A DNA stretch of 41,781 bases. Origin: a virus. The stretch is from IMG/VR virus record IMGVR_UViG_3300045988_102491, positions 1 to 41,781 of that record; one strand, given 5' to 3'. A model generated the notes under the pieces. The model was not told where the DNA came from. It ran no database searches and was given only the letters and a program-made list of their open reading frames with translations. This document shows positions 3,250 through 38,918 of the stretch, piece after piece; within the stretch, counting starts at the first letter, position 1, and each line of letters opens with the position of its first letter. A program made the position numbers and the translations under genes.

Positions 3250-3272
3250 AGTTTAACCTCCTGTTTTTATAC

Positions 3273-3315: not shown

Positions 3316-3330
3316 TTTTTCGCATTAGTA

Positions 3331-3359
3331 TTGAAACATTTTCGCTTTTGGCGTATAAT
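3331..3359 (+). promoter_or_regulatory. SigA-type promoter for the CI-like repressor gene
   Basis: TTGAAA (3331..3336), a 17-nt spacer, then TATAAT (3354..3359). AAGGAGG and the ATG at 3381 follow. Confidence 0.7.
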
Positions 3360-3380
3360 TCGCTTTAAGGAGGGGTGTAA

Positions 3381-3797: not shown

Positions 3798-3801
3798 GTT
3801 C

Positions 3802-7941: not shown

Positions 7942-7992
7942 GGTGTTGTACCTCCTGGTCATGTGTCGTTGTCCCTTGCGGTGATTCTATGA

Positions 7993-22408: not shown

Positions 22409-22410
22409 TC

Positions 22411-25400
22411 ATGTCAAAGCTTTATGCGCTCCAGGAAAGCGTGACTGGGCAGAAATTTCAGCAGAAGGAAGAGAAAAAACAGCCTCCCTCCTTTTACAGA
22501 CAGAAGAAACAAGAGAGCGTTGCCAATGCAGCTGCGCGGGCCTCCCGCCCAAAGACTCTTCCAACCGTGACCAGAGTCAACAAAGTGGATTTGCAGGACG
22601 AACGGGCCGCCCAGAACAGGGCCAGGGCAAGTACCGCCAACCAGCGTATGGCGAACCTGTCCGCGAAACAGTCCGGCCTTCTTCCGCTTGGCTCTGGAGA
22701 GCGCATGGAGGATGTAAACTCGGAGCTCTCCGCGCTTCGGCATGAGCAGGACCTTGTTTCGCAGTACAACAACGACTTGTCCTATCAGATCAAGCGTGGA
22801 CTCGGATACGGTACGGAGCGGGCCGGCGCCGCGCTTCTCGGCGCCGCAGAGGGTCTCACTGATATCATCGGAAGCGGATTCTATGCTGGGTTGTCCGGGC
22901 TTACCTCGCTCGGCGGCCTGGCGCCCAACCCTGTTTCGGAATGGGCTCTGGATCAGGGTCAGGCGTTTCTGGACAACAGTGTTACCAGAGACTGGGAGAA
23001 ATCCATCGAGGAGCGGTATAAACCTACCGAAGCAGAGCGGAAGGTCACCGGTATCGGTCAGTCCGTTGCTCAGATGCTTCCGGCTATCGGCGTGTCGAAG
23101 GCCGTTGGAGCCGCACAGGCCGCGCCGAAGGCCGTGAGCGCCGCAAAAGGCTTGCTGACTGGTGAACGGGTCGGACAGGCTCTATTCGGCCTTCAGGCTG
23201 CCGGAAACGCCGCCTCCCAGGCAAAGCAGGAAGGGGCAAACCTCGGACAGTCGGTTGCCTACGGCGCGGCGTCCGGTCTTACAGAGTCTTTGATCGAGCG
23301 GGTATCCGGCGGTATTCCCGGACTCGGTAAGGGTGCTCTGGACGATGTGGCGGCCCGTGTGGCGTCCAATCCGATTGTCCGCAATTCGTTGGACATTCTC
23401 GGAGAAGGCGGAGAGGAGGCCGTGTCCGCTGTTCTTGACCCGTATCTCCGCCGGGCCATGTACGACCCTGACGCCAAAAATGCCACGCCCCAGGAGATCG
23501 CAGAGGCAGCCGTCACCGGCGCGATTGCGGCCGGTGTTCTGAAAGGCGGGATCGAACTTCCGACCGCAGTCGGTGATACCGTGTCCAGAGTCAGAACTGT
23601 GCGCGATTCCGTCGGCACGAATCAGGATATCGCGGCTCGCGTCAATGCCAGTATCGCAGAGGGGAATGGACCGTTCCGTCCCTATGAACAGAATCGGACT
23701 GAATCTAAGACGGATCGAGTTCCTGGTGAGTACCGTGCGGAAACGCCTCAAAATGTAGAATATCCGACAGTGCCTATCATCAACCTTTCTATGCAGAATG
23801 TTGCAGATATGAATGGAGGAACTCTTCCTGCGAGTGGAAATGCGCTGCGGAAGCAGGCTATCTCCAGAGCTAGAAAGAATCTTGGTTTGGATGAAACTGG
23901 CACTATTTATATACCGGCAAGTAATGTGACCAGAAATGGGGAGGAATATATTCTCAAAATAACAAGATCTACTTTGAACAAAATGCTTTCTCCATCCAAT
24001 GGTGGCGTTGTGCAGCCGGAAAGCCTTGTTGTTTTGGACAATATTGATAGAATCGCCAACAATGGCGTGTACTTCAAAAGCGAAGGAGACCGAAAAGGAA
24101 GAGATCAGATCGCTGGATATGACCACCTAATGACCACGGTATATATTGATAACCAGCCATACACTGTGGATATGCGCGTCCGCGTTTATGATGAAAAAAC
24201 AGGCGGCGGCAACACGCTATACTACTTTACTCCAGAAGAAATTATCACTACAAAAAAAGTAGATGCAGACCTCCCTACGGGCACGCTGCACGAACGTACC
24301 ATGATTCAGGAGGCTGCACCTACTTCTATATCTACTATACCACAGAACGAAGTAGTTGGCAACTCCGACAATGGTTCTGTTATGGATGAAACTTCCGTGA
24401 ATCCGGAAAGCTCCGTCGGCGCTGCGTCCTATGGATTTGACCCTTACACCAACCTGCAAGGCCGGTATGGGACTATCCAGCCGGGCGAAAATCCGGCGCG
24501 TGTGGTCGATGTTCCCAGCCGGACAGAGGATCACAACAAGGTATCTCTGACCGCTCGTACCGTCATGGAGGCGGTGGCCACACCGGAAGCAGCGGTCCCG
24601 GTTATTGCACAGATGGTGGTTGACGGACGATTTTCCCACATTCCGGTATCCAACGCACAGCGGGCCGAAATGGCAGAAAACCGCATCCAAAAGACCGGAT
24701 ACCAGGACGCCCTTGCAAATTGGAGAGCGGATGTCCGTTCCGGCAAATCCTCCGCAGACATCACCGCTATGGGCGCTCAGCTGTACAATGCGGCGGTCAA
24801 TGCAGGGCGCACCGGCGAGGCCATGGACATTCTCTATGACTACACACAGGCCATCCGAGCGGGCGCACAGGCCACGCAGGCGGCCAGAATCCTGAAAACG
24901 CTGACTCCTTCCGGGCGGCTATACATGCTTCAAAAGGAGGTCAACAACCTCAACGACAAGCTCAGCGAAAAGCAGAAGAAAGCCGCCGGGAAGAAACAGA
25001 GCGTTTCCGCAGAGGATAATGTCCCGGTTGAACTCTGGATGCAGCGGGTAGGAGAGACCCTAGCCGACCGTCTGGCGTCCCGTGTAAACACTCCGAAGGA
25101 AACCGCCCGCACTGTGGCGCAGACCGTTCTTTCCGACCTCCAGCGATATGCAAACGAGACCGCGCCGAAGGCTCTTCCGACCGGAAAGAAGCGCACGGAG
25201 ATGGACCGCATCATGGACCTGTTCCAGAACCGCACCGCCTACGAAGAGGCGTGGCAGGCGGCAAAGGATACGCTTTCTGACCAGTTTGAGGACAACCCGG
25301 AGGCCCTTGCCGCTTTTGACGAGTGGCTGGACAGCTCTCTGGACTACACCAAACGACTGACCAAAGAGCTGACCAACCAGGACGCCATTGTTATTGACGA

Positions 25401-30280: not shown

Positions 30281-30588
30281 TGAAAAAGATCGCAATGATC
30301 GTCGAGGACATCCGGGAGGAGCTCAGAGGTGCTGAGCACTACGCCAAGCTGGCGACTCAGTACAAAATGGATGACGTTGATCTTGCCGACGCATACGCCT
30401 CCATGGCCTCGCAGGAGCTCTCTCATGTTGACTCTCTGCACTCCCAGGTCGTGCGTGTCATCAAAAAGCACAGGGCAGAGGGGAATATCCCTCCGGCTGG
30501 CATGATGGAAGTCTGGAATTTCGAGCATGAGCGCATGGTTGACAGCGTCGCTAAAGTCAAGATGCTTCTAGAAATGTACAAGAAATAA
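30280..30588 (+). CDS. Hypothetical helical protein (ferritin-like four-helix-bundle character?)
   Basis: GTG start 6 nt after GAAGGAGGG. EELRGAEHYAKLA and SQELSHVDSLH resemble rubrerythrin/ferritin-like helices, but the call is weak. Confidence 0.4.
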   Translation: MKKIAMIVEDIREELRGAEHYAKLATQYKMDDVDLADAYASMASQELSHVDSLHSQVVRVIKKHRAEGNIPPAGMMEVWNFEHERMVDSVAKVKMLLEMYKK

Positions 30589-30591
30589 AAA

Positions 30592-30620
30592 AGAGGGGGA
30601 ATCAATCCCCCTCTTTTTCT
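30592..30620. terminator. Bidirectional terminator shared by the convergent late (+) and early (-) transcription units
   Basis: agaggggga-atcaa-tccccctct with a T-run on the plus strand and an A-run upstream. The sigma gene stop codon lies in the loop. Confidence 0.75.
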
Positions 30621-31078
30621 TTTTGCAGCTCTGCCCATGCTTTTTTTGCGATACGGTCTATGGTCCTCTTTGACACACCCAGCTTGTCCGCGATCTGCTC
30701 CTTTGTTTTGCCACGGAGAAGGGAGTGGAGGACTATGTACTCTCGGCTGCGCCTTGCAAAAGCCGACCGGATTCTCTTTTCCAAATCCTCTTTGCTGTCC
30801 GCCTCTTCCGTTTCTGCTTCTGCATAATCCTCTGTCAACTCTTCCTGTGGCTTTGGCTGCCTGCGTAGGTAATCGATGATATTGTGTCGGATGCAGGTAT
30901 TTGCCAACGGCTCAAACGGTCGGTTTCCGTCCCAACGCTGTGCAGCTTCCCAAAGACCGATCAGGCCGCTCTGGAGTGCGTCGTCATCCTCTGCGCAGTT
31001 TGGTGATACAGACCTTGCCACTCTGTCTACCAGCGGCCTGTATCGCTCTACCATGGAATCGCTTTCTGATTTCTTCAA
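30602..31078 (-). CDS. Sigma-70 family (ECF-like) RNA polymerase sigma factor
   Basis: 158 aa. Region 2-like sequence is LQSGLIGLWEAAQRWDGNRPFEPLANTCIRHNIIDYLRR. Region 4 HTH is GKTKEQIADKLGVSKRTIDRIAKKA. TTG start. Confidence 0.75.
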   Translation of the reverse strand: MKKSESDSMVERYRPLVDRVARSVSPNCAEDDDALQSGLIGLWEAAQRWDGNRPFEPLANTCIRHNIIDYLRRQPKPQEELTEDYAEAETEEADSKEDLEKRIRSAFARRSREYIVLHSLLRGKTKEQIADKLGVSKRTIDRIAKKAWAELQKEKEGD

Positions 31079-31082
31079 TCTC

Positions 31083-31339
31083 TCACCCAGCCCGGAACAT
31101 CGGGCACTTCTTTACATGATATGTGCCTATCTTCACATACACGTTTTTCTTTTCAATCCACCGACTGACCAAGATTTCGTCTTTTTTACGCTCCACCCAG
31201 GCACCGGCTGAAAGGACCGGCTCCATGGGCACCCCCTTGATCCGTCGGAGGATGGAACGGCATTGGCACATTGCCAGCAGATGGTTTCAGTGATTCGAAC
31301 AGGTTTTCCCACGCCCTTCCTCCTCCATTTCCACCGCAA
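31083..31339 (-). CDS. Cys-rich small protein encoded in two overlapping frames; candidate -1 frameshift at A_AAA_AAG (31187..31181)
   Basis: The zero frame is 31339 (or GTG 31312 after GGAGGAGG)..31133. The -1 frame is open 31271..31083. A fused product of about 85 aa would carry ICWQC, GCPW and KKCPMF cysteines. Confidence 0.4.
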
Positions 31340-31736
31340 AAGCCAGTCTGCAAAGTGCGTGGCTTAAATGATCGTTGCTCTCGTCTCCGGCCAGCCACGC
31401 AAAGATATGTGTCAGTGCTCTTCCTACGTGCTCCTTGGCCGGAATCAGCTTGTAGTTGTTCTCTGGATACCCGTGAACTTCTCCGGCCTCATATCGCACT
31501 CTGGACATTGCCAGCATAGCTCTCGGCGGAAGCCACTCGGACCGGTACGGCCTATGGTGCTGCTTTCCGCCGCTCTCATTTGTGGTGATGGCGGTTTCTT
31601 TTGCAAGGCCGGATGTTGTTTCCGATGGTTCCCACATAGACGGAATAGATAGTGTGCCATCTTTGTTTTTTCTCTGTACACATTCTGCGCATTTAAAAGT
31701 TCCATCGTTTGCGCAGTTTATACAATTCTTCTCCAA
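31287..31736 (-). CDS. Zinc-ribbon plus DUF5664 / dATP-dGTP diphosphohydrolase-N-terminal-like domain protein
   Basis: TTG start after AAGGAG. The N-terminus holds CINC...CAEC. The C-domain [78 protein letters not shown] fits that family as I recall it. Confidence 0.55.
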
Positions 31737-31872: not shown

Positions 31873-32247
31873 TCAGTCCTCCTCTGCTGGCTGGTGGAGT
31901 CTCTCGAAGTAAAACACAACCTTATGCGGTTTCGGCTCTACAAGGCCAAACCGAACAGCGTTTTTGTATGTCACGCTGTCCCGCATAAGAACATCTGGCA
32001 TGGCTTCCACCATTTTGCGGAAGCCTTCCAATGTGGATCGGCTCTTGTAATGGTTGCAGCTCCGGCAGGCCGGTAGCATATTGTCAAGAGTGTCGCTTCC
32101 TTTCTCGCTCCATCCGTTTATAGGAACAACATGGTCAACCTGCATATCTTCAAATCTAAGATCACATCCACAGTACGCACAACACCCTCCGGTTTTGCTG
32201 TAAATCTCCATGCGCTCGAGTCTCGATAGGCGTCTGCGTTCAGCCAT
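31873..32247 (-). CDS. HNH endonuclease
   Basis: CAYCGCDLRFEDMQVDHVVPINGWSEKGSDTLDNMLPACRSCNHYK is a classic HNH (CxxC...DH...N...CxxCN) motif. Confidence 0.85.
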   Translation of the reverse strand: MAERRRLSRLERMEIYSKTGGCCAYCGCDLRFEDMQVDHVVPINGWSEKGSDTLDNMLPACRSCNHYKSRSTLEGFRKMVEAMPDVLMRDSVTYKNAVRFGLVEPKPHKVVFYFERLHQPAEED

Positions 32248-32794
32248 TGTAATTCCCCCTCAACCGCTTCTCCAGCTCTGCCCAAGCTTCCGGAGTCATG
32301 GCACGCCCACACTTCGGGCAAAAATTGTCCTTGTGACCATACTGCGCGTCTTTGCTGTTGCATTCACACTTTGAGCACCGCGGCAGGGACCATTTGCTTT
32401 CAGGGTAAATCCACTCAGCCGTCCACACCTCCCGGTCGATGTTGGCGGGAGGGTAGGCGTAGGCAAGCCACCGTTTACCATACCCATAATCTTCTGGATG
32501 TTTTGACACAAACGGGTCAAGTATTTCCCAGTGAGGCTTAGGGCTATCTTCTTGCAGTCCAACGTGCCAATAAGGCTTCCCAACCACCTCCCGCAGTTGC
32601 TCCACCGTCAGCGGCTGCATTTTGCCAGCTTCGGCAAAATGTGCAGACCTCACCGCCTCCAGGCAGGTCTCCATTATCTCCAACTGCTCCTCCCAGTTCT
32701 CCGGGCCGCACCCGTTGATCTGAGGTGCCATCCGCAGGGACCGGATTTCCTCGGTCAGGTATTTTATGGCCTTCTCGCGCTTATCGCTCGTCAT
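32240..32794 (-). CDS. Hypothetical protein with C-terminal zinc ribbon
   Basis: Start placed at M33 (MTSDKREKAIKYL) after AAGGAGG. The C-terminus is PRCSKCECNSKDAQYGHKDNFCPKCG. Confidence 0.55.
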   Translation of the reverse strand: MTSDKREKAIKYLTEEIRSLRMAPQINGCGPENWEEQLEIMETCLEAVRSAHFAEAGKMQPLTVEQLREVVGKPYWHVGLQEDSPKPHWEILDPFVSKHPEDYGYGKRWLAYAYPPANIDREVWTAEWIYPESKWSLPRCSKCECNSKDAQYGHKDNFCPKCGRAMTPEAWAELEKRLRGNYNG

Positions 32795-33125
32795 GGTTGG
32801 CCTCCTTATCTCTGATAAACGGGCATGTTTTCCACCCCATTGGCGTAGTCGAAAAAACACAGGATTCTCCGGCACATCTTTTCCCATCAAACCCAGGGTT
32901 CCCGCACATCTTAGGCCAGTCAGGGTAAAACACCTTGTTCAGCCCCAAGAATGTGGACAGGTCAGGCCCGATCCGCTTCGGTCGTGTTAGGCGTCGGAAC
33001 AAATGTCGAATTCCGAGAGGGATTTCCTCTCGCTTCTGATACTCTTCGACTTCTCCGGTGTCGGTGTGGAGAACGGTGAACGCCGTCTTTTCTCCGTTGG
33101 TAAAATACCGCACATCAATGCTCAT
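32781..33125 (-). CDS. Hypothetical protein (114 aa)
   Basis: AAAGGAGA RBS is present. It overlaps both neighbours (11 and 14 nt). No family recognised. Confidence 0.5.
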   Translation of the reverse strand: MSIDVRYFTNGEKTAFTVLHTDTGEVEEYQKREEIPLGIRHLFRRLTRPKRIGPDLSTFLGLNKVFYPDWPKMCGNPGFDGKRCAGESCVFSTTPMGWKTCPFIRDKEANHDER

Positions 33126-33444
33126 TTTTCATGTCTCCTTTCTCATTTTCAAACTTCCTCGGCTCCCATCCGATCTTCAGCAGCGCAAGCTGATTCGGAG
33201 TCAGGACGGGGGCGCGGGTGTTCCAGTATTCGATTGCTTTCTTCTCTGTGAAATGAGCACACCCATACGCTCCACAGTAATGGTTCTGGCAGGACACCGC
33301 ATATATCGGTTTCCCTCCCGTGTGTAGTTCCTGTACATCCGGGATTCCGCCACACCTCCAGCACTCCAGCAGCACCCCAGCCGCCGTCAGCCTCTCCGCC
33401 GCCTCCCGGTCGCCCAGGAGGGCTAAAACTTTATCGTCAAGCAT
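33115..33444 (-). CDS. Lar-family restriction-alleviation-like protein
   Basis: LLECWRCGGIPDVQELHTGGKPIYAVSCQNHYCGAYGCAHFTEKKAIEYWNTRAP matches the Lar pattern (C..CG ... C...C ... eAi..WNtRa). Confidence 0.65.
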   Translation of the reverse strand: MLDDKVLALLGDREAAERLTAAGVLLECWRCGGIPDVQELHTGGKPIYAVSCQNHYCGAYGCAHFTEKKAIEYWNTRAPVLTPNQLALLKIGWEPRKFENEKGDMKNEH

Positions 33445-33886
33445 CAGACTCTACCTCCCATCTTATCTTCATTTGTGCCGGGCAAAGATCGACCTCCGGC
33501 CGTCTTTTTCCGGTCCATCTAAGCCCTCCTGCCTTTCCAACGCATTTCCACCCAGTAGCCTTCAAACTAGCACCGTTTTCCGAATCCAGAATGTAAGTCA
33601 CGAGTTTCTTGTATCCCATTGCCCTTGCCGCCCTCCACGCAGCAGCATACAGCATAGAGCAAGCGTTTCTGCTCCCGTCAGTACACAGACGGTTTACCTC
33701 CAGCGTCCATCCGTCGTCTAAGTTCCTCGAAACAGGGCGGCCGACGATTGCAACGCCGACTATTTTTTCTCCGTCCGTGCATCCAATCGAAAACTTGTGA
33801 CCCACAACCGGCTTGTGGTGGCGATGGTGTTGATCTACAAAAGCGTTCGCTTCTTTCAGCGTAATCGGGCAAATATCAAGTCCCAT
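33437..33886 (-). CDS. XF1762-family (GNAT-fold-like) protein
   Basis: ITLKEANAFVDQHHRHHKPVVGHKFSIG...VGVAIVGRPVSRNLDDGWTLEVNRLCTDGSRNACSMLYAAAWRAARAMGYKKLVTYIL matches my recollection of this phage-associated family. Confidence 0.6.
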   Translation of the reverse strand: MGLDICPITLKEANAFVDQHHRHHKPVVGHKFSIGCTDGEKIVGVAIVGRPVSRNLDDGWTLEVNRLCTDGSRNACSMLYAAAWRAARAMGYKKLVTYILDSENGASLKATGWKCVGKAGGLRWTGKRRPEVDLCPAQMKIRWEVESDA

Positions 33887-34721
33887 TGCTCCATACCTCC
33901 CCGAACATGTGGCTTACAATGGCCGGTCTCAGCCATTCCCGCTGGAATCTGGACCACTCTTTGTCAACCTTCCCTTTGGCGTCACGGTATAGCATGGCAT
34001 ACGGCATAAACCCGGCCTTGATCGTCTGCTCCATACGCTCCTGCGCCTTGTCAAACGTGTCCCCCTGATACCCAATCAGGCAGTAGCAGGAGGCCACATG
34101 ACTCTGCGCCGTTACTCCTGCGTCCCGCAGCATCTTCCCGGCCTCTACAAGCGGCTCATAGTCATCTGGCGTGTCATAGGCAAAATACATGCGCTGTGCC
34201 TTAACCTCACGCAGCAGGTCACAGTGCCACGGTTTGAGCTCCTTTGCCTCCAGCCCACCGGTAAACTTCGGGCGTACCGGCTGACGTTTCAGCATGTCGA
34301 ACACTTCCCGGATATGATCCTCGGAGCACTGGAGCAAGTTGTTGTCCAAGATGTCCCATCCGTCTTTGATCTCCAACTCCCGCAGCGGTCCCTCCCGGCG
34401 TGGCGCAAGGCAAAACCAGCACTTGTTGTTGCACCCACGACTCGTTAGGGTGTATCCCTTTTTGATATACCGACCAGGAATAAACTCTCCTTCTGCTGGA
34501 TCGTCGTAGGCAGGTCCTCCCAGCTTCACCGGCACACCGGCCATCATCCAATCCTCTGCCAGCTCTTCCGCCTTTGGACGGTCGTATGTAAACGTCACGG
34601 ACACATGCACCTCGTCGATCTCCGGAAGAAGGAGAAGAGGAGGCGGTCCGAAAAATACCATATCGTCATCCGGCGTTGCCTTTGTTTTTCTCGGAAACAC
34701 TCGCGCTATTTTATCTCCCAT
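33876..34721 (-). CDS. Radical SAM-type enzyme
   Basis: 281 aa. SRGCNNKCWFC gives CxxxCxxC at aa 97-104 (nt 34433..34410), preceded by an N-terminal domain of about 95 aa. Confidence 0.65.
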   Translation of the reverse strand: MGDKIARVFPRKTKATPDDDMVFFGPPPLLLLPEIDEVHVSVTFTYDRPKAEELAEDWMMAGVPVKLGGPAYDDPAEGEFIPGRYIKKGYTLTSRGCNNKCWFCLAPRREGPLRELEIKDGWDILDNNLLQCSEDHIREVFDMLKRQPVRPKFTGGLEAKELKPWHCDLLREVKAQRMYFAYDTPDDYEPLVEAGKMLRDAGVTAQSHVASCYCLIGYQGDTFDKAQERMEQTIKAGFMPYAMLYRDAKGKVDKEWSRFQREWLRPAIVSHMFGEVWSNGT

Positions 34722-34734
34722 CTAAATCAACCTC

Positions 34735-34887
34735 TCACGCATACTTCGTACCGAACTTCGCCTGAAACTCCCTGCACGGATCTTTCTTGCATGGCTTATT
34801 CGGGTGTGGGCAGTTGTAAATACAAAACACCGCCCAATCCTTCCGGATGATCCTACCGTCGTCTTTCGACTCCTGCTCTTTTTTCAT
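34735..34887 (-). CDS. Candidate 50-aa Cys-rich mini-protein
   Basis: ATGA overlap with the upstream stop. My translation is MKKEQESKDDGRIIRKDWAVFCIYNCPHPNKPCKKDPCREFQAKFGTKYA. It is below the ORF-track cutoff. Confidence 0.45.
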   Translation of the reverse strand: MKKEQESKDDGRIIRKDWAVFCIYNCPHPNKPCKKDPCREFQAKFGTKYA

Positions 34888-35039
34888 TTATTCTCCAATT
34901 CCTGGACGATTGCCTCCAGCAGCACCCGCCCCACGACGATCCGCTTCCCCGGAGGGTTGTCCTCCAAAATCTTCCGCAGCGTCATTATCAAGGCTTCGCG
35001 CCGCGGCTGCTCACCGAGTACCGGCCTGCCGTGTCTCAT
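34884..35039 (-). CDS. Candidate 51-aa mini-protein
   Basis: Start placed at the internal ATG 35039 (ATGA overlap with the upstream stop). The translation is MRHGRPVLGEQPRREALIMTLRKILEDNPPGKRIVVGRVLLEAIVQELENK. The longer track ORF (to 35333) lies out of frame over the better 35036..35398 gene. Confidence 0.4.
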   Translation of the reverse strand: MRHGRPVLGEQPRREALIMTLRKILEDNPPGKRIVVGRVLLEAIVQELENK

Positions 35040-35398
35040 AACTTCTTTCCTCGCGCCCCAAACTTTGCAGGGATCCCATTCCGCGCTCTCCATTTCTGAA
35101 TCACTCTGCGCTTGGTTCCGACACGCTTTGCTATCTCCTCGTCGGTCATGTCCTGACCGTATAACCACCTTGCCATGTTCATATCCCAGCCTACCGGGCG
35201 GCCCGTTTCCTCGTATCTCTTCTGCGGCTGTACTTCGCCCTCCGGCCGAGGCACGATGGACTTGACTGTACATTTCTCGCGCGGGCCGCAGATAGAACTC
35301 CTGCACTTTCCGTTGTGCGTGAGATAATCGCACTCATATCCTCCATAACCATAAGCCGACTCAACTGCATCAACACAGCCTTTGCACGGATGTTCCAT
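35036..35398 (-). CDS. Cys-rich N-domain plus C-terminal HTH protein
   Basis: Start placed at M8 (MEHPCKGCVDAVESAYGYGGYECDYLTHNGKCRSSICGPREKC...). The C-terminus is MTDEEIAKRVGTKRRVIQKWRARNGIP. Confidence 0.55.
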   Translation of the reverse strand: MEHPCKGCVDAVESAYGYGGYECDYLTHNGKCRSSICGPREKCTVKSIVPRPEGEVQPQKRYEETGRPVGWDMNMARWLYGQDMTDEEIAKRVGTKRRVIQKWRARNGIPAKFGARGKKL

Positions 35399-35412
35399 AT
35401 CAATCACTCCAT

Positions 35413-35922
35413 TCAGCAATCATAAACGAATGTATACCCATTGCGGAATCGGTCCTTTACCTTTCCGTAAAGATGCCTTTTTACGCAGGAAACACTAAAA
35501 AAGTTCTTTTCTGCGGCTTCTGTGATGGAACCGTAAAACCCAAGGACGACTCCGTATTTATCTACTTTTTTGACCGGCTTTCGGGCCATCTTCATGCTCC
35601 TTGGTATTTCAGAACGTTTGACGATCATCAGGTTATTTGCACCACAGTCGCCCGAAAATCCGTTCCGGTGGATGACCACCTCGCCCGGGCCTCTGGTTCG
35701 TATGAATCGCCCCTCCATGAGGCGTACAACCGCGATCCGTTTGAATCCATCCGGCCACACGGCCAGCTTGACCGAGAGCACAGTGGACGCTCTTCCTCCA
35801 CCGCCTTTGTAGAGCAGAGGGACTAGCGTTTTCCAGCCGGACTTTAGCTTGCGCTGCACTTCGCCTTCCTCGGAGATCCGGTATTCAAACCGGTATCCCT
35901 CAATGGGCTTCCACTTTGTCAT
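35413..35922 (-). CDS. Free-standing HNH homing-endonuclease-like protein (NUMOD4-like N-terminus, HNH_3-like core)
   Basis: Start placed at M23 (MTKWKPIEGYRFEYRISEEGEVQ). The core is VIHRNGFSGDCGANNLMIV. GC is lower than in the neighbouring genes. Confidence 0.65.
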   Translation of the reverse strand: MTKWKPIEGYRFEYRISEEGEVQRKLKSGWKTLVPLLYKGGGGRASTVLSVKLAVWPDGFKRIAVVRLMEGRFIRTRGPGEVVIHRNGFSGDCGANNLMIVKRSEIPRSMKMARKPVKKVDKYGVVLGFYGSITEAAEKNFFSVSCVKRHLYGKVKDRFRNGYTFVYDC

Positions 35923-36349
35923 TCTGGCTTCGCTCCTCTTTGGCCTCTGTGATCTCCACGCAAATCGATCCGCCGGTCCAAAACTCATGGGAGACCTTTC
36001 GGAACCACCTGGGCGAATCGTCCGGCAGGAGGTAGCCCTTCATGGCGTCGACGATTGCCTTCCCGATGGCCGCGTGGTTATCGATATCCAGGCCATCGTC
36101 CCACCGGAAAACCACGGAAACAGGACCGCTCACCAGGCCCCGACGAACCCTCGCTTTACGCATGGACAAAACGGTCAACTTGTGCAGATCGTCCGCATCT
36201 TCTTTGCGCTTCGCCCAGTGCTTTCCGGAGTAGTACGCATTGAGTCCAAATCTCCGGCAGAATGCGGTTTTCCCCCTTTTTGTGGGCGGATATGGGATGG
36301 TAAATCGGATCAATGTTCCAGCCTCCAATTCTTCTTTCCGCTCAGGCAA
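35900..36349 (-). CDS. rusA: RusA-family Holliday junction resolvase
   Basis: GLDIDNHAAIGKAIVDAMKGYLLPDDSPRW is typical of RusA. The track start is TTG 36349. An alternative TTG at 36313 overlaps the upstream stop (TTGA) and lies 8 nt after GGAGG. Confidence 0.7.
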   Translation of the reverse strand: MPERKEELEAGTLIRFTIPYPPTKRGKTAFCRRFGLNAYYSGKHWAKRKEDADDLHKLTVLSMRKARVRRGLVSGPVSVVFRWDDGLDIDNHAAIGKAIVDAMKGYLLPDDSPRWFRKVSHEFWTGGSICVEITEAKEERSQNDKVEAH

Positions 36350-37128
36350 ATATAGAAATTTTTGCTACGCTCATAGATCCGGCTGCCGACCGCCTCGTCG
36401 ATGGAAAGCAGGTCCTCAACACTCCGCTCGGTGCTGATGATCGTGATCTTTTTCGAGTCGTTATACCTGGCGTTCAGAATTTCGAACGCTAGGTTTACGT
36501 CACCGGTTGTTGGCTCCTGGCCCTTGCCGGTTTTGAACAGGTCGTCGATGTACAGACAGCGGACTTTTTTCAGCGGCTCCACGATCCTGCGGTATGACGC
36601 CTCGTCGTTCACCGCTGCCTTGGCCTGAACGGACATGTCCCTCCAGAGCGCGTAGCGCGTCTCTACGCCGTTTTTTATCAGACCCCCACACAGACATGTA
36701 CACAGGTGTGTTTTGCCCGTACCGGGCCGTCCAGAGGCTAACAGCCACCCTTGCGGCCTTGACATGAAGCGCAGGACCAATTCTTTCGCCTTTTGCTGCC
36801 ATGGCTCCTGCTCCTGCCAGTTGTCCAGCGTGTACCGGCGGAGCATGTCCTCCAGGCCGCTTTTCCGCATCCGCTCCTGGCTCCTCCGGATGGTCATACA
36901 GCGGCACTGAGCCAGGTAAGACCGGCCCTGATCGTCCACCCGGTGGAAGTACCCCCGGTTGAGACACTCCGGGCAGTCATAGCCATCCAGGCTCCCTGGA
37001 ACGCGGTTCAGGCTGTCCGCCCTCATGCGGGAAAGCTCAATCTGCGTCATCGATTGCAGATCTGGCCCTCCAGCCCTGGAAAGAGCCGTCTGCATTTGCT
37101 CCGGCAGCCGGAGCGTTTCCAGCGACAT
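36310..37128 (-). CDS. DnaC/IstB-like AAA+ helicase loader
   Basis: Walker A is SGRPGTGKTHL and Walker B is CLYIDDL. It has an N-terminal Cys-rich segment (CPECLNRGYF...CRC). GAGGAGGG RBS lies 8 nt before the ATG at 37128. Confidence 0.8.
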   Translation of the reverse strand: MSLETLRLPEQMQTALSRAGGPDLQSMTQIELSRMRADSLNRVPGSLDGYDCPECLNRGYFHRVDDQGRSYLAQCRCMTIRRSQERMRKSGLEDMLRRYTLDNWQEQEPWQQKAKELVLRFMSRPQGWLLASGRPGTGKTHLCTCLCGGLIKNGVETRYALWRDMSVQAKAAVNDEASYRRIVEPLKKVRCLYIDDLFKTGKGQEPTTGDVNLAFEILNARYNDSKKITIISTERSVEDLLSIDEAVGSRIYERSKNFYICLSGKKNWRLEH

Positions 37129-37789
37129 GTTTTTTACCCTCCTCGCGCTTCTTGTCCAGCTCGTCCCAGTCCGCCAAGCTCTTCACACCGGCGGCCAGCT
37201 TCGAGCGTAAAATCCCACGAATATATGCCCAGGTCGCTTTCTTCTCGTCCAGGGCGATGTCTATCGCTCTCATGCAGCAGGCGGCCCCCATCTGCGACAC
37301 GTAGCCCTTCAGCTCGTCAAGGCTCGTCTGAGAGGCCATAGGGTTCACCCGGTCGAGATAGTAAGCAAATACCTGCTTGTCGTTTGCTTCCTGATTTGCC
37401 GGAAAGGGGGTAGGGGGATAACATTCGTTCTCTATCTCTTTCTCTTTCTCCCCCTCGTTCTCTTTCTCGCTTACACTTTGCTCTCGCTTACGGTTTGCTA
37501 CCTGTTTGCTTTCAGTTTGCTTCCGGTTTGCTTGCGGTTTGCTTCCGGTTTGCTTGCTCTCTGCTCCACGTTTCCCGTTCTCTGCTTTCCGCCTGCTTGA
37601 ATCAAGAGTCGGCTTTATCAGCTCAAAGGCGATGGCAGCGGAGTCGGGAAGTTTATCCAGATCCGGCTCCGTGCCATACAGGGCATAATTGCAGATGGCG
37701 TCATATGCGTCGGCCCTGTCCGCCTTCTTCTTGATACGGGAAAGAGCAGAGGCAAAGGATTCATAAAAAGTGAATTGGCTTCTGCTCAT
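37037..37789 (-). CDS. DnaD-domain replication initiation protein (N-terminal phage replisome-organizer-like domain)
   Basis: Start placed at M13 (MSRSQFTFYESFASALSRI...). The C-domain is VFAYYLDRVNPMASQTSLDELKGYVSQMGAACCMRAIDIALDEKKATWAYIRGILRSKLAAGV. Its 3' end overlaps the DnaC-like gene by 92 nt. Confidence 0.7.
   Translation of the reverse strand: MSRSQFTFYESFASALSRIKKKADRADAYDAICNYALYGTEPDLDKLPDSAAIAFELIKPTLDSSRRKAENGKRGAESKQTGSKPQANRKQTESKQVANRKREQSVSEKENEGEKEKEIENECYPPTPFPANQEANDKQVFAYYLDRVNPMASQTSLDELKGYVSQMGAACCMRAIDIALDEKKATWAYIRGILRSKLAAGVKSLADWDELDKKREEGKKHVAGNAPAAGANADGSFQGWRARSAIDDAD
37491..37556. repeat. Six GTTTGCT iterons with exact 11-bp phasing inside the initiator gene; candidate replication origin
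   Basis: GTTTGCT starts at 37493, 37504, 37515, 37526, 37537 and 37548. A CT-rich tract (37430..37490) is adjacent. Confidence 0.55.
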
Positions 37790-37830
37790 GGTGTCTCCTT
37801 CCTGCCTTTTGTTATAGGGAGGCATAACCC

Positions 37831-38277
37831 TTAATTAAAAGGCAGTTCTCCATCGCTGTCAGAAAGGTCTGCAAACGAGTCAGACGGAGCGGAAGGGGGA
37901 GGGGAGTAGCTCCCGGGATATCCAGAAGAGGACGGCTGGCCGGTGTCTCCATCTCGCTTGGAATCTCCGAAATACACGCTCTCAGCGATCACCTCGGCGC
38001 TCCGGCGCTTGTTGCCGTCCTTGTCGGTCCAATCGCGCATCTGGAGAGAACCGACTACCACGACCATTCGACCCTTGGAAAAGAAACGGGAGACGAACTC
38101 CGCCGTGTTACGCCAGGCCACAACGTCAATAAAGTCGGTGGACTTCTCGCCGGTCTGCTTGTCTTTGAAATCCCGGTCTACTGCAATGGAGAAGGAGGCC
38201 ACAGCCGTTCCGGACTGTGTGTGGCGCAACTCTACGTCGCGGGTGAGTCGACCCATGAAAAAGCATTTATTCAGCAT
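37831..38277 (-). CDS. ssb: Single-stranded DNA-binding protein
   Basis: OB-fold N-terminus (FFMGRLTRDVELRHTQSGTAVASFSIAVDR), a Gly/Pro/Ser linker and an acidic tip DSDGELPFN. Confidence 0.9.
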   Translation of the reverse strand: MLNKCFFMGRLTRDVELRHTQSGTAVASFSIAVDRDFKDKQTGEKSTDFIDVVAWRNTAEFVSRFFSKGRMVVVVGSLQMRDWTDKDGNKRRSAEVIAESVYFGDSKRDGDTGQPSSSGYPGSYSPPPSAPSDSFADLSDSDGELPFN

Positions 38278-38918
38278 TTATTCAACCTCTCTTTTGGATT
38301 GGAGAAAATTTTATCTTCTGACCATCCGGATTTTGATCTGTACCTGATGCAACTTTTTGATATGCCTGTTTCCGCAGACCATTCTGATATGGTTTTTGTC
38401 TCACCGAGCACTGTCAGTAAGACGGTGTTTCTCCTGTTTTCTGATTGTTCCTGGTATGTAGCCCATCTGCAATTTTGCGGGCAGTAGTCACCGTCGTTAT
38501 CAATGCGGTCTATGGTCAGACATTCCTGGTAACCATTTTCTATGGCCCATTTATAGAACGATTCAAAATTTTTACGCCAGTCCTTACAAACGGAAATTCC
38601 GCGACCTCCGTAATTCTTGTATGCGACGTGGTTCATATTGTAACAACGGGCCTTCATACCGTCCCATATGTGGTATAGCCTTGTCCCAAACATTCCGTGC
38701 TTTTTGGTTATCTCTCTCAGATGTTCGGATGCAGTTTCTTTTCGAAGGCATCCACAGCTTCTTGTGTTACCGCTCTTTAATTCTCCATACCCAACCAGCA
38801 CTTCTTTCCCACAATCGCACCTACAAACCCAGAATGTTTTAGGCCCAGGAGTTGATTCGTGCCGTAAGGCGACAAGCCGCCCGAATCTTTGGCCCGTCAA
38901 ATCCTTTTTGTATGTCAA
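38271..38918 (-). CDS. Free-standing homing-endonuclease-like / AP2-type DNA-binding protein
   Basis: LTGQRFGRLVAL...WVCRCDCGKEVLVGYGELKSGNTRSCGC, then YKNYGGRGISVCKDWRKNFESFYKWAIENGY...IDRIDNDGDYCPQNCRW. It has lower GC than its neighbours, a TTG start and a weak RBS. Confidence 0.55.
   Translation of the reverse strand: MTYKKDLTGQRFGRLVALRHESTPGPKTFWVCRCDCGKEVLVGYGELKSGNTRSCGCLRKETASEHLREITKKHGMFGTRLYHIWDGMKARCYNMNHVAYKNYGGRGISVCKDWRKNFESFYKWAIENGYQECLTIDRIDNDGDYCPQNCRWATYQEQSENRRNTVLLTVLGETKTISEWSAETGISKSCIRYRSKSGWSEDKIFSNPKERLNKC

What the first reader, a model, noticed from the sequence alone, without database searches (positions are those of the whole stretch)
33115..34721. Translationally coupled radical-SAM / XF1762-type GNAT-like / Lar-like trio: candidate uncharacterised nucleic-acid modification or anti-restriction module
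**Seen in the sequence**
- Three consecutive minus-strand ORFs overlap one another, by 11 nt (33876..33886) and by 8 nt (33437..33444).
- The next gene downstream overlaps by another 11 nt, so the block looks like a single coupled translation unit.
- The first ORF carries CNNKCWFC (CxxxCxxC, nt 34433..34410) after an N-terminal domain of about 95 aa.
- The second ORF has the HHRHH...GRPV...EVNRLC...SMLY pattern that I associate with the XF1762 family.
- The third ORF has the Lar-like C..CG...C...C...AIEYWNTRA pattern.

**Established knowledge**
- CxxxCxxC is the canonical radical-SAM cluster motif.
- Lar-family proteins alleviate restriction.
- XF1762-family proteins have no assigned function as far as I know.

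**Inference**
- A radical-SAM enzyme paired with an acyltransferase-fold protein and an anti-restriction factor, inside a phage early operon, suggests a covalent modification system acting on phage DNA, or on a host nucleic acid or defence target.
- None of the partner genes of the known phage 7-deazaguanine pathway (FolE, QueC, QueD, DpdA) are visible here, so this would not be that pathway.
Basis: partly seen in the sequence, partly recalled or inferred. Interest (0 to 1): 0.72.

Follow-up and report, generated by a model that had tools for sequence, protein, structure and literature searches.

The report
Swappable phage DNA-modification genes, not a trio
The three overlapping genes are real, but they are independently swappable cassettes in a gut phage's accessory region; the middle one is a short relative of the phage Mu DNA-modifying enzyme Mom, and it turns up next to radical-SAM genes often enough to be worth testing, though it does not depend on them.

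Summary
Observation confirmed. Three minus-strand ORFs overlap by 11, 8 and 11 nt and carry the stated motifs.

Identities:
- 33876..34721 is a divergent member of the uncharacterised mobile-element radical-SAM family phrog_9298. Its Cys triad is invariant and its fold is radical-SAM.
- 33437..33886 is a solid XF1762-family protein (227 bits). It is a short Mom-like GNAT; its best PDB match is Mu Mom (8BV8).
- 33115..33444 is a sub-threshold Lar-like zinc-ribbon protein.

The trio is not a module. Relatives whose rSAM is 99%, 97% and 94% identical lack XF1762, which is an exact 444-nt single-gene indel. XF1762 proteins about 90% identical occur with no rSAM nearby. Lar co-occurs with neither family outside the closest relatives. 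Overlaps of 7–11 nt are the norm across the whole operon.

One nuance remains. Profile searches show XF1762 immediately next to a radical-SAM-superfamily gene (phrog_9298 type or DUF5131) in 33 loci, about 14 lineages, in both gene orders. In one prophage sample this was 20 of 80 loci. From the rSAM side there is no enrichment, and the rSAMs' commonest neighbours are DNA methyltransferases.

XF1762 is fused to C5 and N6 DNA methyltransferases, never to an rSAM. Mom is now known to act alone, using Gly-tRNA.

Best reading: independent DNA-modification / anti-restriction cassettes. A facultative GNAT + rSAM pathway stays possible (about 0.2–0.25).

The parts
33876..34721 (-). Radical-SAM enzyme ('rSAM-A', 281 aa). 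It is a divergent member of phage/ICE family phrog_9298, with an N-terminal Rossmann/flavodoxin-like domain (about residues 1-90) followed by a partial TIM-barrel core.
   Evidence: PHROG 9298 E 2e-19. Pfam Radical_SAM scores 24.6 bits, below the gathering cutoff of 29.5. C97/C101/C104 are invariant in 26 homologues. The AF2 model has pLDDT 79; Foldseek PDB top hit is RimO 4jc0 (E 4.5e-4), followed by other rSAMs. The BFVD top hit is a phage COG1032 Fe-S oxidoreductase (E 6.9e-5).
34410..34433 (-). CNNKCWFC, the CxxxCxxC [4Fe-4S]/SAM cluster loop (residues 97-104).
   Evidence: Sequence. The motif is invariant across homologues and conserved in the wider phrog_9298 alignment A4.
33437..33886 (-). 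XF1762-family protein (149 aa), a short Mom-like GNAT. It is a single-gene cassette absent from the nearest relatives.
   Evidence: NCBIfam NF045478 227 bits. Pfam Mom 29.1 bits against a cutoff of 27.1. phrog_1384 E 9.6e-44, the same PHROG as Mu Mom. Foldseek top hit is 8BV8 Mom, E 8.5e-6, TM 0.61. hhalign against the Mom family gives E 3.8e-4 with H21/R66/S77 aligned to H58/R111/S124.
33446..33889 (.). 444-nt segment that is present in the window but missing from relative L005. It corresponds exactly to the XF1762 gene.
   Evidence: blastn colinearity: window 35928..33890 aligns to L005 1180..3217 at 94% identity, then window 33445 resumes at L005 3220. Junction alignment.
33115..33444 (-). 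Lar-like zinc-ribbon protein (109 aa).
   Evidence: Pfam Lar_restr_allev 26.3 bits, below the cutoff of 28.6. TIGR03655 26 bits, below 39.6. phrog_599 E 7.5e-8. A diverged copy follows the rSAM directly in L005 and L165.
32781..33125 (-). 114-aa ORF of unknown function. It is a second window-specific cassette (window-only segment about 32799..33148).
   Evidence: No Pfam, PHROG, NCBIfam or PADLOC hit. Absent from L005. A homologue occurs near XF1762, without any rSAM, in L099.
32240..32890 (-). phrog_25732 protein of unknown function. The gene callers used a 184-aa version with a later start.
31873..32247 (-). HNH endonuclease.
   Evidence: Pfam HNH 40.8 bits.
31287..31736 (-). Protein with a dATP/dGTP diphosphohydrolase N-terminal domain and an N-terminal Cys-rich segment.
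   Evidence: PF18909 45.2 bits.
30602..31078 (-). Sigma-factor-like late regulator, the last gene of the operon.
   Evidence: phrog_351 E 2.4e-16.
30587..30619 (.). Strong bidirectional intrinsic terminator between the convergent early and structural operons.
   Evidence: stem of 13-14 pairs followed by T-runs on both strands.
35900..38277 (-). Upstream replication module (SSB, DnaD-like, DnaC-like, RusA-like). It places the island in the early/replication-side operon.

Best explanation
The three ORFs are independent single-gene cassettes. They sit in the hypervariable accessory island between the replication module and the late sigma factor of a temperate phage of gut Clostridia (Oscillospiraceae / Lachnospiraceae type).

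Across related phages, prophages and conjugative elements, this island collects nucleic-acid-modification and anti-restriction genes. These include orphan C5 and N6 DNA methyltransferases, PAPS-reductase-like proteins, phrog_9298 radical-SAM enzymes, DUF5131, XF1762 GNATs, Lar-like proteins and HNH nucleases. The genes are exchanged one at a time.

Each gene carries the ribosome-binding site of the next gene in its own 3' end. Tight overlaps therefore arise automatically and do not indicate a shared function.

- **XF1762 (inferred).** It most likely acts alone, as Mu Mom does, transferring an acyl or aminoacyl group from a host donor (aminoacyl-tRNA or acyl-CoA) onto phage DNA to blunt restriction. 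It lacks Mom's essential HTH-like insertion, so its target, donor and product may differ from Mom's.
- **The radical-SAM enzyme (inferred).** It works without XF1762 in the closest relatives and performs an unknown radical reaction. Given its consistent position beside DNA methyltransferases on phages and ICEs, this is probably also connected with DNA or nucleotide modification, or with establishment in a new host.
- **The Lar-like protein.** It is a small zinc-ribbon protein of unproven function.

Shown here: the gene identities, the folds, the cassette indels, the co-occurrence counts and the fusions. Inferred: every biochemical activity.
For: **Cassette independence**
- L005 (rSAM 97% identical) is colinear with the window at 94% nucleotide identity, except for exact gene-sized gaps at 33446..33889 (XF1762) and about 32799..33148 (the 114-aa ORF).
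- L580 (99%), L165 (94%) and L166 (89%) also lack XF1762.
- The window's XF1762 is 90% identical to XF1762 proteins with no rSAM within 5 kb.
- XF1762 lies within 5-10 kb in only 4 of 160 rSAM-A-anchored loci, and is never adjacent there.
- Lar-like genes are almost never found near either family.
- RBS-like GGGAGGTA elements sit at both cassette junctions.
- Overlaps occur operon-wide.

**Island composition**
- Immediate neighbours of rSAM-B (n=158): C5 MTase 25, N6/N4 MTase 23, ICE genes 34.
- Immediate neighbours of rSAM-A (n=159): PAPS reductase 18, DUF3849 12, C5 MTase 8.

**XF1762 and DNA**
- It shares a Pfam family and a PHROG with Mu Mom, and 8BV8 is its top fold match.
- The catalytic R111 and S124 equivalents are invariant.
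- It occurs as in-frame fusions to a C5 DNA methylase (L426, L432, L390, P0361) and to a D12 N6 methylase (P0503), and with polyvalent-protein domains (P0386, P0383). No rSAM fusion was seen.
- Mom acts as a single enzyme with Gly-tRNA(Gly) (PMC13219725).
Against: - XF1762 is immediately adjacent (gap 400 nt or less) to a radical-SAM-superfamily gene in 33 surveyed loci. These fall into about 14 lineages, occur in both gene orders, and involve unrelated rSAM subgroups (phrog_9298 type and DUF5131), plus the window's own pair.
- In one prophage sample, 20 of 80 XF1762 genes have such a neighbour, against 2 of 82 loci with any rSAM within 10 kb in a neutral-anchor set (Fisher p = 5e-9).
- Half of all co-present pairs are adjacent (33 of 68). 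This is more than a simple shared-island model predicts.
- No activity of any of the three proteins has been tested.
- The surveys see only the 80 best loci per query and only 5-10 kb on each side.
Confidence: 0.6

Rival explanations
1. Facultative two-enzyme DNA hypermodification. XF1762 installs an acyl or aminoacyl group (for example glycyl from Gly-tRNA) on a DNA base. The neighbouring radical-SAM enzyme then remodels the adduct by isomerisation, C-C bond formation or methylation. This parallels phage M6, where gp51 adds glycine and the rSAM gp53 isomerises it. Alternatively the pair behaves like a split Elp3 (rSAM + GNAT). XF1762 alone would give a simpler mark, and the rSAM would upgrade it.
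For: - 33 adjacent XF1762 / rSAM-superfamily pairs in about 14 lineages, in both orders, involving three unrelated rSAM lineages: rSAM-A in the window, rSAM-B and DUF5131.
- The rSAM-B junctions are tight, with gaps of -76 to +9 nt.
- 20 of 80 prophage XF1762 genes have such a neighbour.
- L426 and L432 show the arrangement MTase-XF1762 fusion followed directly by rSAM-B.
- There is a precedent for an rSAM remodelling a glycine adduct on DNA (PMC8989533).
- DUF5131 sits in the same RadicalSAM.org megacluster (Megacluster-5) as spore photoproduct lyase (PMC9477430), and M6 gp53 is described as SPL-like (PMC8989533).
Against: - Near-identical orthologues of both genes exist without the partner.
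- From the rSAM side, XF1762 is not enriched: 12 of 160 and 4 of 160 against a neutral 4 of 82, p = 0.59 and 0.45.
- In viral contigs only 4 of 80 XF1762 genes have an adjacent rSAM.
- The rSAMs' commonest neighbours are DNA methyltransferases, not XF1762.
- No XF1762-rSAM fusion was found among the ten longest of the top 150 representatives, which were the only ones scanned; 4025 representatives were hit in all. Fusions to methyltransferases were found.
- The window rSAM shows no specific similarity to Elp3 (Foldseek ranks 30 and 47, E about 0.06) or to M6 gp53 (only the 12-residue cluster loop aligns).
- Mom needs no partner (PMC13219725).
Confidence: 0.24
2. Obligate three-gene module. The radical-SAM enzyme, the XF1762 GNAT and the Lar-like protein would be translationally coupled because they act together on one substrate.
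For: The three genes overlap. The same order recurs on about 10 contigs, but these are the same phage sampled repeatedly.
Against: - None of 320 partner-anchored genome and viral loci contains all three genes.
- Lar-like genes are seen near the rSAM only in the closest relatives (L005, L165) and near XF1762 in 2 of 160 loci.
- XF1762 is a clean indel between the rSAM and Lar genes.
- Overlaps are operon-wide.
Confidence: 0.03
3. XF1762 does not act on DNA at all. It would be a GNAT acting on tRNA, protein or a small molecule, as toxin-type GNATs or generic acetyltransferases do. The Mom resemblance would then be only a shared fold.
For: - Direct XF1762-to-Mom sequence similarity is weak: the XF1762 profile built here scores Mu Mom at only 5-6 bits, and hhalign probability is 36%.
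- XF1762 lacks Mom's essential HTH-like insertion, and probably the R151 and Y159 equivalents.
- Generic aminoglycoside and Rim-type acetyltransferases score almost as well in Foldseek.
- Some records annotate the protein simply as 'acetyltransferase'.
Against: - There are in-frame fusions to C5 and N6 DNA methyltransferases and to polyvalent-protein domains.
- DNA methyltransferases are frequent neighbours.
- Mom is the single best structural match.
- The Mom-specific motifs E-x-N-R and R-N-x-x-S are conserved.
Confidence: 0.12

Closest known systems
Phage Mu Mom (Pfam PF25680, PDB 8BV8): a GNAT that transfers glycine from Gly-tRNA(Gly) to N6 of adenine in dsDNA, giving 6-NcmdA after rearrangement (PMC13219725)
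   Same: GNAT fold, and Mom is the best PDB match. Same PHROG, and the Pfam Mom gathering score is passed marginally. The N-terminal catalytic half is conserved, including equivalents of H58, E108/N110/R111, R120/N121 and S124. It is phage-borne and located among anti-restriction genes.
   Different: 149 aa against 241 aa. It lacks Mom's N-terminal 38 residues and the HTH-like insertion (about 175-209) that is essential for momylation. Y59 is replaced by an invariant Arg. R151 and Y159 have no clear equivalents. There is no Com-like translational control gene. It has a conserved basic C-terminal tail (WTGKRRPEVDL..K..W) of its own. Its activity is untested.
phrog_9298 radical-SAM proteins (e.g. 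Clostridium phage phiCT453B gp19), an uncharacterised phage/ICE family
   Same: Same architecture: an N-terminal Rossmann-like domain followed by an (S/T)RGCxxxCxxC core. Core residues are conserved (alignment A4). HMM hit E 2e-19. Same genomic niche beside DNA methyltransferases.
   Different: Only 23-29% identical to typical members. The N-terminal domain is shorter. It forms its own large clade (4845 hits) that reaches Bacteroidota, Synergistota and other phyla.
Phage M6 gp51/gp53 thymidine hypermodification: an amino-acid:DNA transferase plus the radical-SAM N-alpha-GlyT isomerase, the first validated DNA-modifying rSAM (PMC8989533)
   Same: The logic of one enzyme adding an amino-acid-type group to a DNA base and a neighbouring rSAM remodelling it.
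   Different: gp53 is SPL-like, 480 aa, with two clusters. hhalign aligns only the 12-residue cluster loop. The window has no 5-hmdU pathway genes (kinase, aGPT-Pplase, PLP enzyme).
Elp3 (a radical-SAM domain and a GNAT/KAT domain in one polypeptide; acetyl-CoA radical chemistry giving cm5U on tRNA)
   Same: An rSAM followed by a GNAT, in the same order as in the window. Karambelkar et al. (PMC7261163) once proposed an Elp3-like trans-rSAM mechanism for Mom.
   Different: Here the two are separate, independently inherited genes. Elp3 is only a weak fold match (ranks 30 and 47, E about 0.06). The Elp3-like model for Mom has been superseded (PMC13219725).
Methylthiotransferases (RimO/MiaB) and B12-binding-domain radical-SAM enzymes (COG1032)
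   Same: Best fold matches are RimO 4jc0 (E 4.5e-4) and a phage COG1032 protein (E 6.9e-5). They share an N-terminal flavodoxin/Rossmann-like domain ahead of the barrel.
   Different: The N-terminal domain has no conserved Cys, so there is no auxiliary cluster. There is no TRAM domain. No cobalamin-binding signature could be assessed. The protein is much shorter (281 aa).
Lar (Rac prophage restriction-alleviation protein; Pfam PF14354 / TIGR03655)
   Same: The Cys-rich zinc-ribbon-like domain aligns over the whole 58-residue model. Hit to phrog_599.
   Different: Scores are below both curated cut-offs. There are extra N- and C-terminal segments. Restriction alleviation has, to my knowledge, been shown only for Rac Lar.

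Membership tests
Radical SAM superfamily | Conserved CxxxCxxC triad that ligates the SAM-binding [4Fe-4S] cluster | tested here: met
   C97/C101/C104 are invariant in 26 homologues at 67-99% identity and conserved across alignment A4, which includes phrog_9298 proteins.
Radical SAM superfamily | Partial (beta/alpha)6 TIM-barrel fold | tested here: met
   AF2 model with pLDDT 79. Foldseek PDB hits include RimO, lysine 2,3-aminomutase, HemN, BioB, LipA, EpeE and Elp3 at probability 0.9-1.0. The E-values are modest (best 4.5e-4).
Radical SAM superfamily | Pfam PF04055 gathering score | tested here: not met
   24.6 bits, below 29.5. Only the cluster-loop region (residues 93-120) aligns. Many homologues carry a precomputed PF04055 hit.
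phrog_9298 (phage/ICE radical SAM) | Profile match and shared two-domain architecture | tested here: met
   E 2e-19, 71 bits over residues 87-265. Typical members score 260-488 bits, so this protein is a divergent branch.
Methylthiotransferase (RimO/MiaB) | Three N-terminal Cys residues for the auxiliary cluster, and a C-terminal TRAM domain | tested here: not met
   No invariant Cys in residues 1-96. The protein ends at residue 281 with helices and has no TRAM domain.
Elp3-like rSAM+GNAT | Specific similarity of the rSAM to the Elp3 rSAM domain, and obligate linkage to the GNAT | tested here: not met
   Elp3 appears at Foldseek ranks 30 and 47, E about 0.06. The rSAM is inherited without the GNAT in relatives at 99%, 97% and 94% identity.
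XF1762 family (NCBIfam NF045478) | Equivalog HMM score above the cutoff | tested here: met
   227.1 bits against a cutoff of 50, covering model positions 2-143 of 143.
Mom family (PF25680) | Pfam gathering score | tested here: met
   29.1 bits against 27.1, which is marginal. Only profile positions 3-130 of 202 are covered.
Mom family (PF25680) | Catalytically essential R111 and S124 (Mu numbering, 241-aa form) | tested here: met
   hhalign of profile A2 against Mom profile A5 aligns R66 with R111 and S77 with S124. Both are invariant in the XF1762 alignments.
Mom family (PF25680) | Essential R151, and Y159 (important for activity; the canonical GNAT tyrosine) | tested here: inconclusive
   The profile alignment stops at Mom residue 136. 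My manual alignment puts invariant E103 and L108 at those positions, but that alignment is low-confidence.
Mom family (PF25680) | HTH-like insertion (about residues 175-209), essential for momylation | tested here: not met
   XF1762 is 149 aa. It covers phrog_1384 positions 20-155 of 245, against 7-218 for Mu Mom. The AF2 model shows no helix-turn-helix after residue 110. Foldseek aligns only 130 columns.
Mom family (PF25680) | Gly-tRNA-dependent formation of 6-NcmdA in dsDNA | not testable with these tools
   Requires nucleoside LC-MS/MS or an in-vitro assay.
Lar restriction-alleviation family (PF14354 / TIGR03655) | Curated HMM cutoffs | tested here: not met
   26.3 bits, below 28.6 (Pfam). 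26.0 bits, below 39.6 (NCBIfam). phrog_599 E 7.5e-8.
Conserved three-gene module (rSAM + XF1762 + Lar) | Co-occurrence of the three families beyond close relatives | tested here: not met
   None of the partner-anchored loci contains all three genes.
Conserved gene pair (XF1762 + radical-SAM-superfamily enzyme) | Non-random adjacency and enrichment | tested here: inconclusive
   33 adjacent pairs in about 14 lineages. From the XF1762 side: 30 of 80 against 2 of 82, p = 5e-9. From the rSAM side: 12 of 160 against 4 of 82, p = 0.59. The baseline set is taxonomically narrow.
Phage 7-deazaguanine pathway | QueE-type rSAM together with FolE/QueC/QueD/DpdA partners | tested here: not met
   No such families were hit among the ORFs scanned (most ORFs of 100 aa or more). 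The rSAM's cluster loop is at residue 97 after an extra domain.

The most novel reading that the evidence does not exclude
XF1762-type short Mom-like GNATs and neighbouring radical-SAM-superfamily enzymes (phrog_9298 type or DUF5131) could form a facultative two-step DNA hypermodification pathway in phages and ICEs of gut Clostridia. The GNAT would load an acyl or aminoacyl group from a host carrier onto a DNA base. The radical enzyme would then convert it into a chemically distinct, restriction-resistant adduct. The pairing would have been assembled repeatedly from different rSAM lineages, and the window's rSAM-A/XF1762 pair would be a recent instance.
Probability: 0.2. Interest if true: 0.8.

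Novelty: new variant of a known kind. Interest (0 to 1): 0.45.

Why it matters
Mom was, until 2026, a decades-old puzzle, and it is now the founding member of a class of GNATs that use charged tRNA to modify DNA.

XF1762 is a very large sister family: 4025 representatives at 50% clustering, and at least 8000 clusters at 90%. It is abundant in human-gut prophages. It keeps Mom's catalytic Arg and Ser but lacks the DNA-binding insertion, and it is found fused to DNA methyltransferases. Working out what it puts on DNA would extend the new Mom chemistry to a major group of gut phages, and could reveal a new base modification.

The phrog_9298 radical-SAM family is similarly abundant on phages and ICEs, sits next to orphan methyltransferases, and has no known function. 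Only one DNA-modifying rSAM has been validated so far.

The recurrent XF1762-rSAM juxtaposition gives a concrete, cheap experiment: express XF1762 with and without the rSAM and analyse the nucleosides.

For genome annotation, the practical lesson is that overlapping start and stop codons in phage early operons are not evidence of a functional module.

Tried and rejected
1. **Single-sequence searches gave a misleading first answer.** phmmer searches for co-occurrence suggested almost no rSAM near XF1762. Profile HMMs later revealed a second rSAM family, so the early conclusion of no association at all was too strong and was revised.
2. **Elp3-like split enzyme.** This was attractive because PMC7261163 proposed a trans-acting rSAM for Mom. 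I rejected it as the leading model. Mom's mechanism is now solved without radicals (PMC13219725), Elp3 is only a weak fold match, and the two genes are inherited separately.
3. **Relationship to M6 gp53.** Only the cluster loop aligns.
4. **Methylthiotransferase assignment from the RimO fold hit.** The protein has no auxiliary-cluster cysteines and no TRAM domain.
5. **Sequence search of the PDB with both profiles.** Nothing significant.
6. **PADLOC defence models.** No hits.
7. **Megablast of the region against GenBank phages.** No match.
8. **Neutral anchors for a baseline.**
   - The DnaC-like query returned only 2 viral loci.
   - The RusA-like query returned only 7 genome loci.
   - Only the RusA viral set (n=82) was usable. 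It is dominated by one phage lineage from one gut dataset, so the enrichment statistics remain soft.
It was re-run with alignment A3.
10. **Rosetta-stone search for an rSAM-XF1762 fusion.** None was found among the long representatives. Fusions were to methyltransferases, polyvalent-protein domains and recombinase fragments.

Full report
**1. The observation**

The window carries, on the minus strand, ORFs at 33876..34721 (281 aa), 33437..33886 (149 aa) and 33115..33444 (109 aa). They overlap by 11 and 8 nt. The next ORF, 32781..33125, overlaps by a further 11 nt. The motif CNNKCWFC is residues 97-104 (nt 34433..34410). The HHRHH / GRPV / EVNRLC / SMLY and C..CG...C...C...AIEYWNTRA patterns are all present.

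Overlaps of 7-11 nt are, however, the rule along this whole minus-strand operon. At least five other junctions between 31.8 and 41.4 kb show them. They are therefore not a specific property of these three genes.

**2. Context**

The window is a temperate tailed phage or prophage.
- Lysogeny module: integrase at 4549..5580, a CI-like repressor at 3381..3797 and anti-repressors.
- Plus-strand structural genes: TerS, TerL, portal, head, tail and endolysin.
- Minus-strand operon: it runs through a metal-dependent hydrolase, an HNH nuclease, SSB, DnaD-like, DnaC-like and RusA-like genes. It then passes through the accessory genes under study to a sigma-factor-like gene, and ends at a strong bidirectional terminator at 30587..30619.

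The same phage, with the identical gene order, is present on about ten contigs of roughly 40 kb from different gut samples. Relatives of both main genes lie in prophages of Oscillospiraceae, Lachnospiraceae and other Clostridia. GenBank phages have no nucleotide-level match.

**3. What each gene is**

*(a) The radical-SAM gene, 33876..34721*
- It matches Pfam Radical_SAM only at the cluster loop and below threshold (24.6 against 29.5 bits). It matches phrog_9298 'radical SAM domain protein' at E 2e-19.
- It has 4845 database homologues. C97/C101/C104 are invariant in a 26-sequence alignment.
- An AlphaFold model (pLDDT 79) shows an N-terminal beta-alpha domain followed by a beta/alpha barrel.
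- Foldseek finds the methylthiotransferase RimO first (E 4.5e-4), then other radical-SAM enzymes. In the viral library the first hit is a phage COG1032 Fe-S oxidoreductase (E 6.9e-5).
- It lacks the N-terminal cysteines and the TRAM domain of methylthiotransferases.
- Elp3 appears only at ranks 30 and 47 (E about 0.06).
- I call this clade rSAM-A. Typical phrog_9298 proteins, which I call rSAM-B (for example phiCT453B gp19), are 23-29% identical to it. They share its architecture and core residues.

*(b) The XF1762 gene, 33437..33886*
- It is a full-length XF1762-family protein (NCBIfam 227 bits).
- Pfam places it, just above threshold, in the Mom family (29.1 against 27.1 bits). It belongs to phrog_1384, which is also the PHROG of Mu Mom itself.
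- An AlphaFold model (pLDDT 66 overall; the core is good and the C-terminal 37 residues are poor) finds the crystal structure of Mu Mom, 8BV8, as the top PDB match. The values are E 8.5e-6, TM 0.61 and rmsd 3.1 A over 130 columns, ahead of generic GNATs.
- A profile-profile alignment with a 21-member Mom alignment (E 3.8e-4) gives these equivalences:
  - H21 with H58.
  - E63/N65/R66 with E108/N110/R111.
  - R73/N74 with R120/N121.
  - S77 with S124.
- R111 and S124 are two of the three residues shown to be essential in Mom (PMC13219725). Both equivalents are invariant in XF1762.
- XF1762 is only 149 aa. It stops aligning before Mom's R151/Y159 region, and it has no counterpart of the HTH-like insertion (about 175-209) whose deletion abolishes momylation (PMC13219725).
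- It is therefore a sister family of Mom, not a Mom orthologue.

*(c) The Lar-like gene, 33115..33444*
- It has a Lar-like Cys-rich domain but scores below both curated thresholds.

**4. Is the trio a module? No.**

- The closest relative in IMG/VR, L005 (rSAM 97% identical), is colinear with the window at 94% nucleotide identity down to window position 33890. It resumes at 33445, so exactly the XF1762 gene is missing. A second gene-sized gap removes the 114-aa ORF.
- Relatives at 99% (L580), 94% (L165) and 89% (L166) rSAM identity also lack XF1762.
- At the junctions, an RBS-like GGGGAGGTATGGA precedes the XF1762 start. The XF1762 cassette ends with its own GGGAGGTAGAG just before the Lar start. 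Each cassette thus carries the ribosome-binding site of whatever follows it. This explains the uniform overlaps and suggests recombination at these short conserved junctions.
- Among 160 loci anchored on rSAM-A (80 viral, 80 genomic; 54-97% identity), XF1762 lies within 5-10 kb in four and is adjacent in none.
- The window's XF1762 is 90% identical to XF1762 proteins with no rSAM within 5 kb.
- Lar-like genes accompany the rSAM only in the closest relatives. They accompany XF1762 in 2 of 160 loci.

**5. A complication that I did not expect**

When I replaced single-sequence searches with profile HMMs, a different picture emerged from the XF1762 side.

| Anchor set | Flank | Result |
|---|---|---|
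| XF1762, 80 prophage loci | 10 kb | 20 have rSAM-B within range; 10 immediately adjacent |
| XF1762, same 80 prophage loci | 10 kb | 10 have DUF5131 immediately adjacent (PF07505, 149 bits) |
| XF1762, 80 viral loci | 5 kb | 7 have any rSAM; 4 adjacent |
| rSAM-B, 160 loci | 10 kb | 12 have XF1762; 8 directly adjacent (gap -76 to +9 nt), in both orders |

DUF5131 is a CxxxCxxC family that RadicalSAM.org lists as a radical-SAM subgroup, next to spore photoproduct lyase (PMC9477430).

Across all partner-anchored loci there are 68 co-present pairs. Of these, 33 are adjacent, falling into about 14 lineages at 70% rSAM identity, plus the window.

- **For a link.** Three unrelated rSAM lineages are involved, both gene orders occur, and adjacency is strongly over-represented among co-present pairs. 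Comparing 30 of 80 with 2 of 82 in a neutral (RusA-anchored) set gives p = 5e-9.
- **Against a link.** From the rSAM side, XF1762 is no commoner than in the neutral set (12 of 160 and 4 of 160 against 4 of 82; p = 0.59 and 0.45). rSAM-adjacent XF1762 proteins usually have relatives 84-98% identical with no rSAM nearby. The neutral set is dominated by one phage lineage, so the baselines are unreliable.

**6. What the neighbourhoods and fusions say**

The commonest immediate neighbours are listed below.

| Anchor | Commonest immediate neighbours |
|---|---|
| rSAM-B (n=158) | C5 DNA methylase 25; N6/N4 methylase 23; TraG/VirB4-like ATPase 21; M23+NlpC/P60 hydrolase 13 (the last two are conjugative-element genes) |
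| rSAM-A (n=159) | PAPS-reductase-like 18; DUF3849 12; C5 methylase 8; DUF5131 5 |

XF1762 also lies among methyltransferases, as in Burkholderia phage phi1026b.

XF1762 occurs as an in-frame C-terminal fusion to a C5 DNA methylase in L426, L432, L390 and P0361. An exhaustive search of 1.84 billion representatives found 4025 XF1762 relatives. I scanned the ten longest of the top 150. Their fusion partners were a C5 methylase, a D12 N6-adenine methylase (P0503), YodL+LPD28 and DUF4316 polyvalent-protein domains, and recombinase fragments. None was fused to an rSAM.

This ties XF1762 to DNA modification and anti-restriction. The whole region looks like a DNA-modification / establishment island shared by phages and ICEs.

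**7. Mechanism**

The acetyl-CoA/iron radical model for Mom, which explicitly looked for a trans-acting rSAM (PMC7261163), has been superseded. Mom alone transfers glycine from Gly-tRNA(Gly) to N6-adenine of dsDNA, and the adduct then rearranges on the base (PMC13219725).

By analogy (inference), XF1762 most likely acts alone as an acyl- or aminoacyl-transferase on DNA. It may have a different target or donor, because it lacks Mom's DNA-gripping insertion and has its own conserved basic C-terminal tail.

The rSAM's chemistry is unknown. The only validated DNA-modifying rSAM is M6 gp53, which isomerises a glycine adduct on thymine (PMC8989533). It is not related to rSAM-A or rSAM-B beyond the cluster loop. 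It does show, though, that the sequence 'amino-acid adduct, then radical remodelling' exists in phages. That is the basis of the rival hypothesis, to which I give about 0.24.

**8. Verdict**

What remains interesting:
- A huge, uncharacterised, Mom-related GNAT family in gut phages, with methyltransferase fusions.
- An equally large uncharacterised rSAM family borne on mobile elements.
- A recurrent but facultative juxtaposition of the two. I could not find it described anywhere: a search for 'XF1762' returned no papers, and the Mom papers do not discuss such neighbours.

The sampling limits the strength of the statistics. Each query returned only its best 80 loci, flanks were 5-10 kb, ORFs were taken stop-to-stop, and the neutral baseline was narrow.

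Noticed in passing
L426:7971-10001, L432:4443-6548, L390:7090-9195 (L390 is the same contig as L289); proteins P0361, P0503: The XF1762/Mom-like domain occurs as an in-frame C-terminal fusion to a C5 cytosine DNA methyltransferase (about 700 aa). In another lineage it is an N-terminal fusion to a D12-class N6-adenine methyltransferase. Two of the C5 fusions (L426, L432) are followed directly by a phrog_9298 rSAM gene; in L390 the gap is 698 nt.
   Followed up: yes
e.g. L272:6441-7223; also L111, L114, L131, L253, L274, L293: DUF5131 (PF07505) is a CxxxCxxC protein that RadicalSAM.org classes in the radical-SAM superfamily. It is the commonest immediate downstream neighbour of XF1762 in prophages (10 of 80), typically about 160-380 nt away.
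   Followed up: partly
L381:7539-10001, L401:1-2856, L220:1152-2333: phrog_9298-type rSAM genes are often flanked by conjugative-element genes (TraG/VirB4-like ATPase, M23+NlpC/P60 cell-wall hydrolase, DUF3849). The family therefore lives on ICEs as well as on phages.
   Followed up: partly
window 33887..33902 and 33445..33460 (minus strand): Both boundaries of the XF1762 cassette carry an RBS-like GGGAGGTA element 8-10 nt before the next ATG. This could serve as microhomology for single-gene exchange between phages.
   Followed up: partly
window 31287..31736 (-): A 149-aa protein with an N-terminal Cys-rich segment and a dATP/dGTP diphosphohydrolase N-terminal domain (PF18909). To my knowledge, this domain is known from dNTP-pool-editing enzymes of phages with modified purines. 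I did not search for a PurZ-like partner.
   Followed up: no
window 7081..7962 (-): A protein that combines a DnaJ domain with LPD29 (a large-polyvalent-protein-associated domain). It lies between the lysogeny module and the terminase genes.
   Followed up: no
window 30587..30619: A perfect 13-14 bp G+C-rich hairpin with T-runs on both strands. It is a bidirectional terminator separating the convergent early and structural operons.
   Followed up: no
window 2001..4000: G+C drops to 0.40, against about 0.55 elsewhere, over the repressor/anti-repressor region.
   Followed up: no
window 22399..27840 (+): A very long ORF (1813 aa) in the tail region. It was not analysed.
   Followed up: no
L286, L299, L322, L323 (Acutalibacter intestini); L259 and L262 (one contig, CAZIQF010000008.1): Single genomes carry several XF1762 copies. 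One species representative has four loci, and one contig has two copies about 20 kb apart. This suggests multiple prophages or elements, each bringing its own copy.
   Followed up: no
window 38271..38918, 35413..35988, 31873..32247 (all -): The early operon contains three separate HNH/NUMOD4-type endonuclease genes.
   Followed up: no
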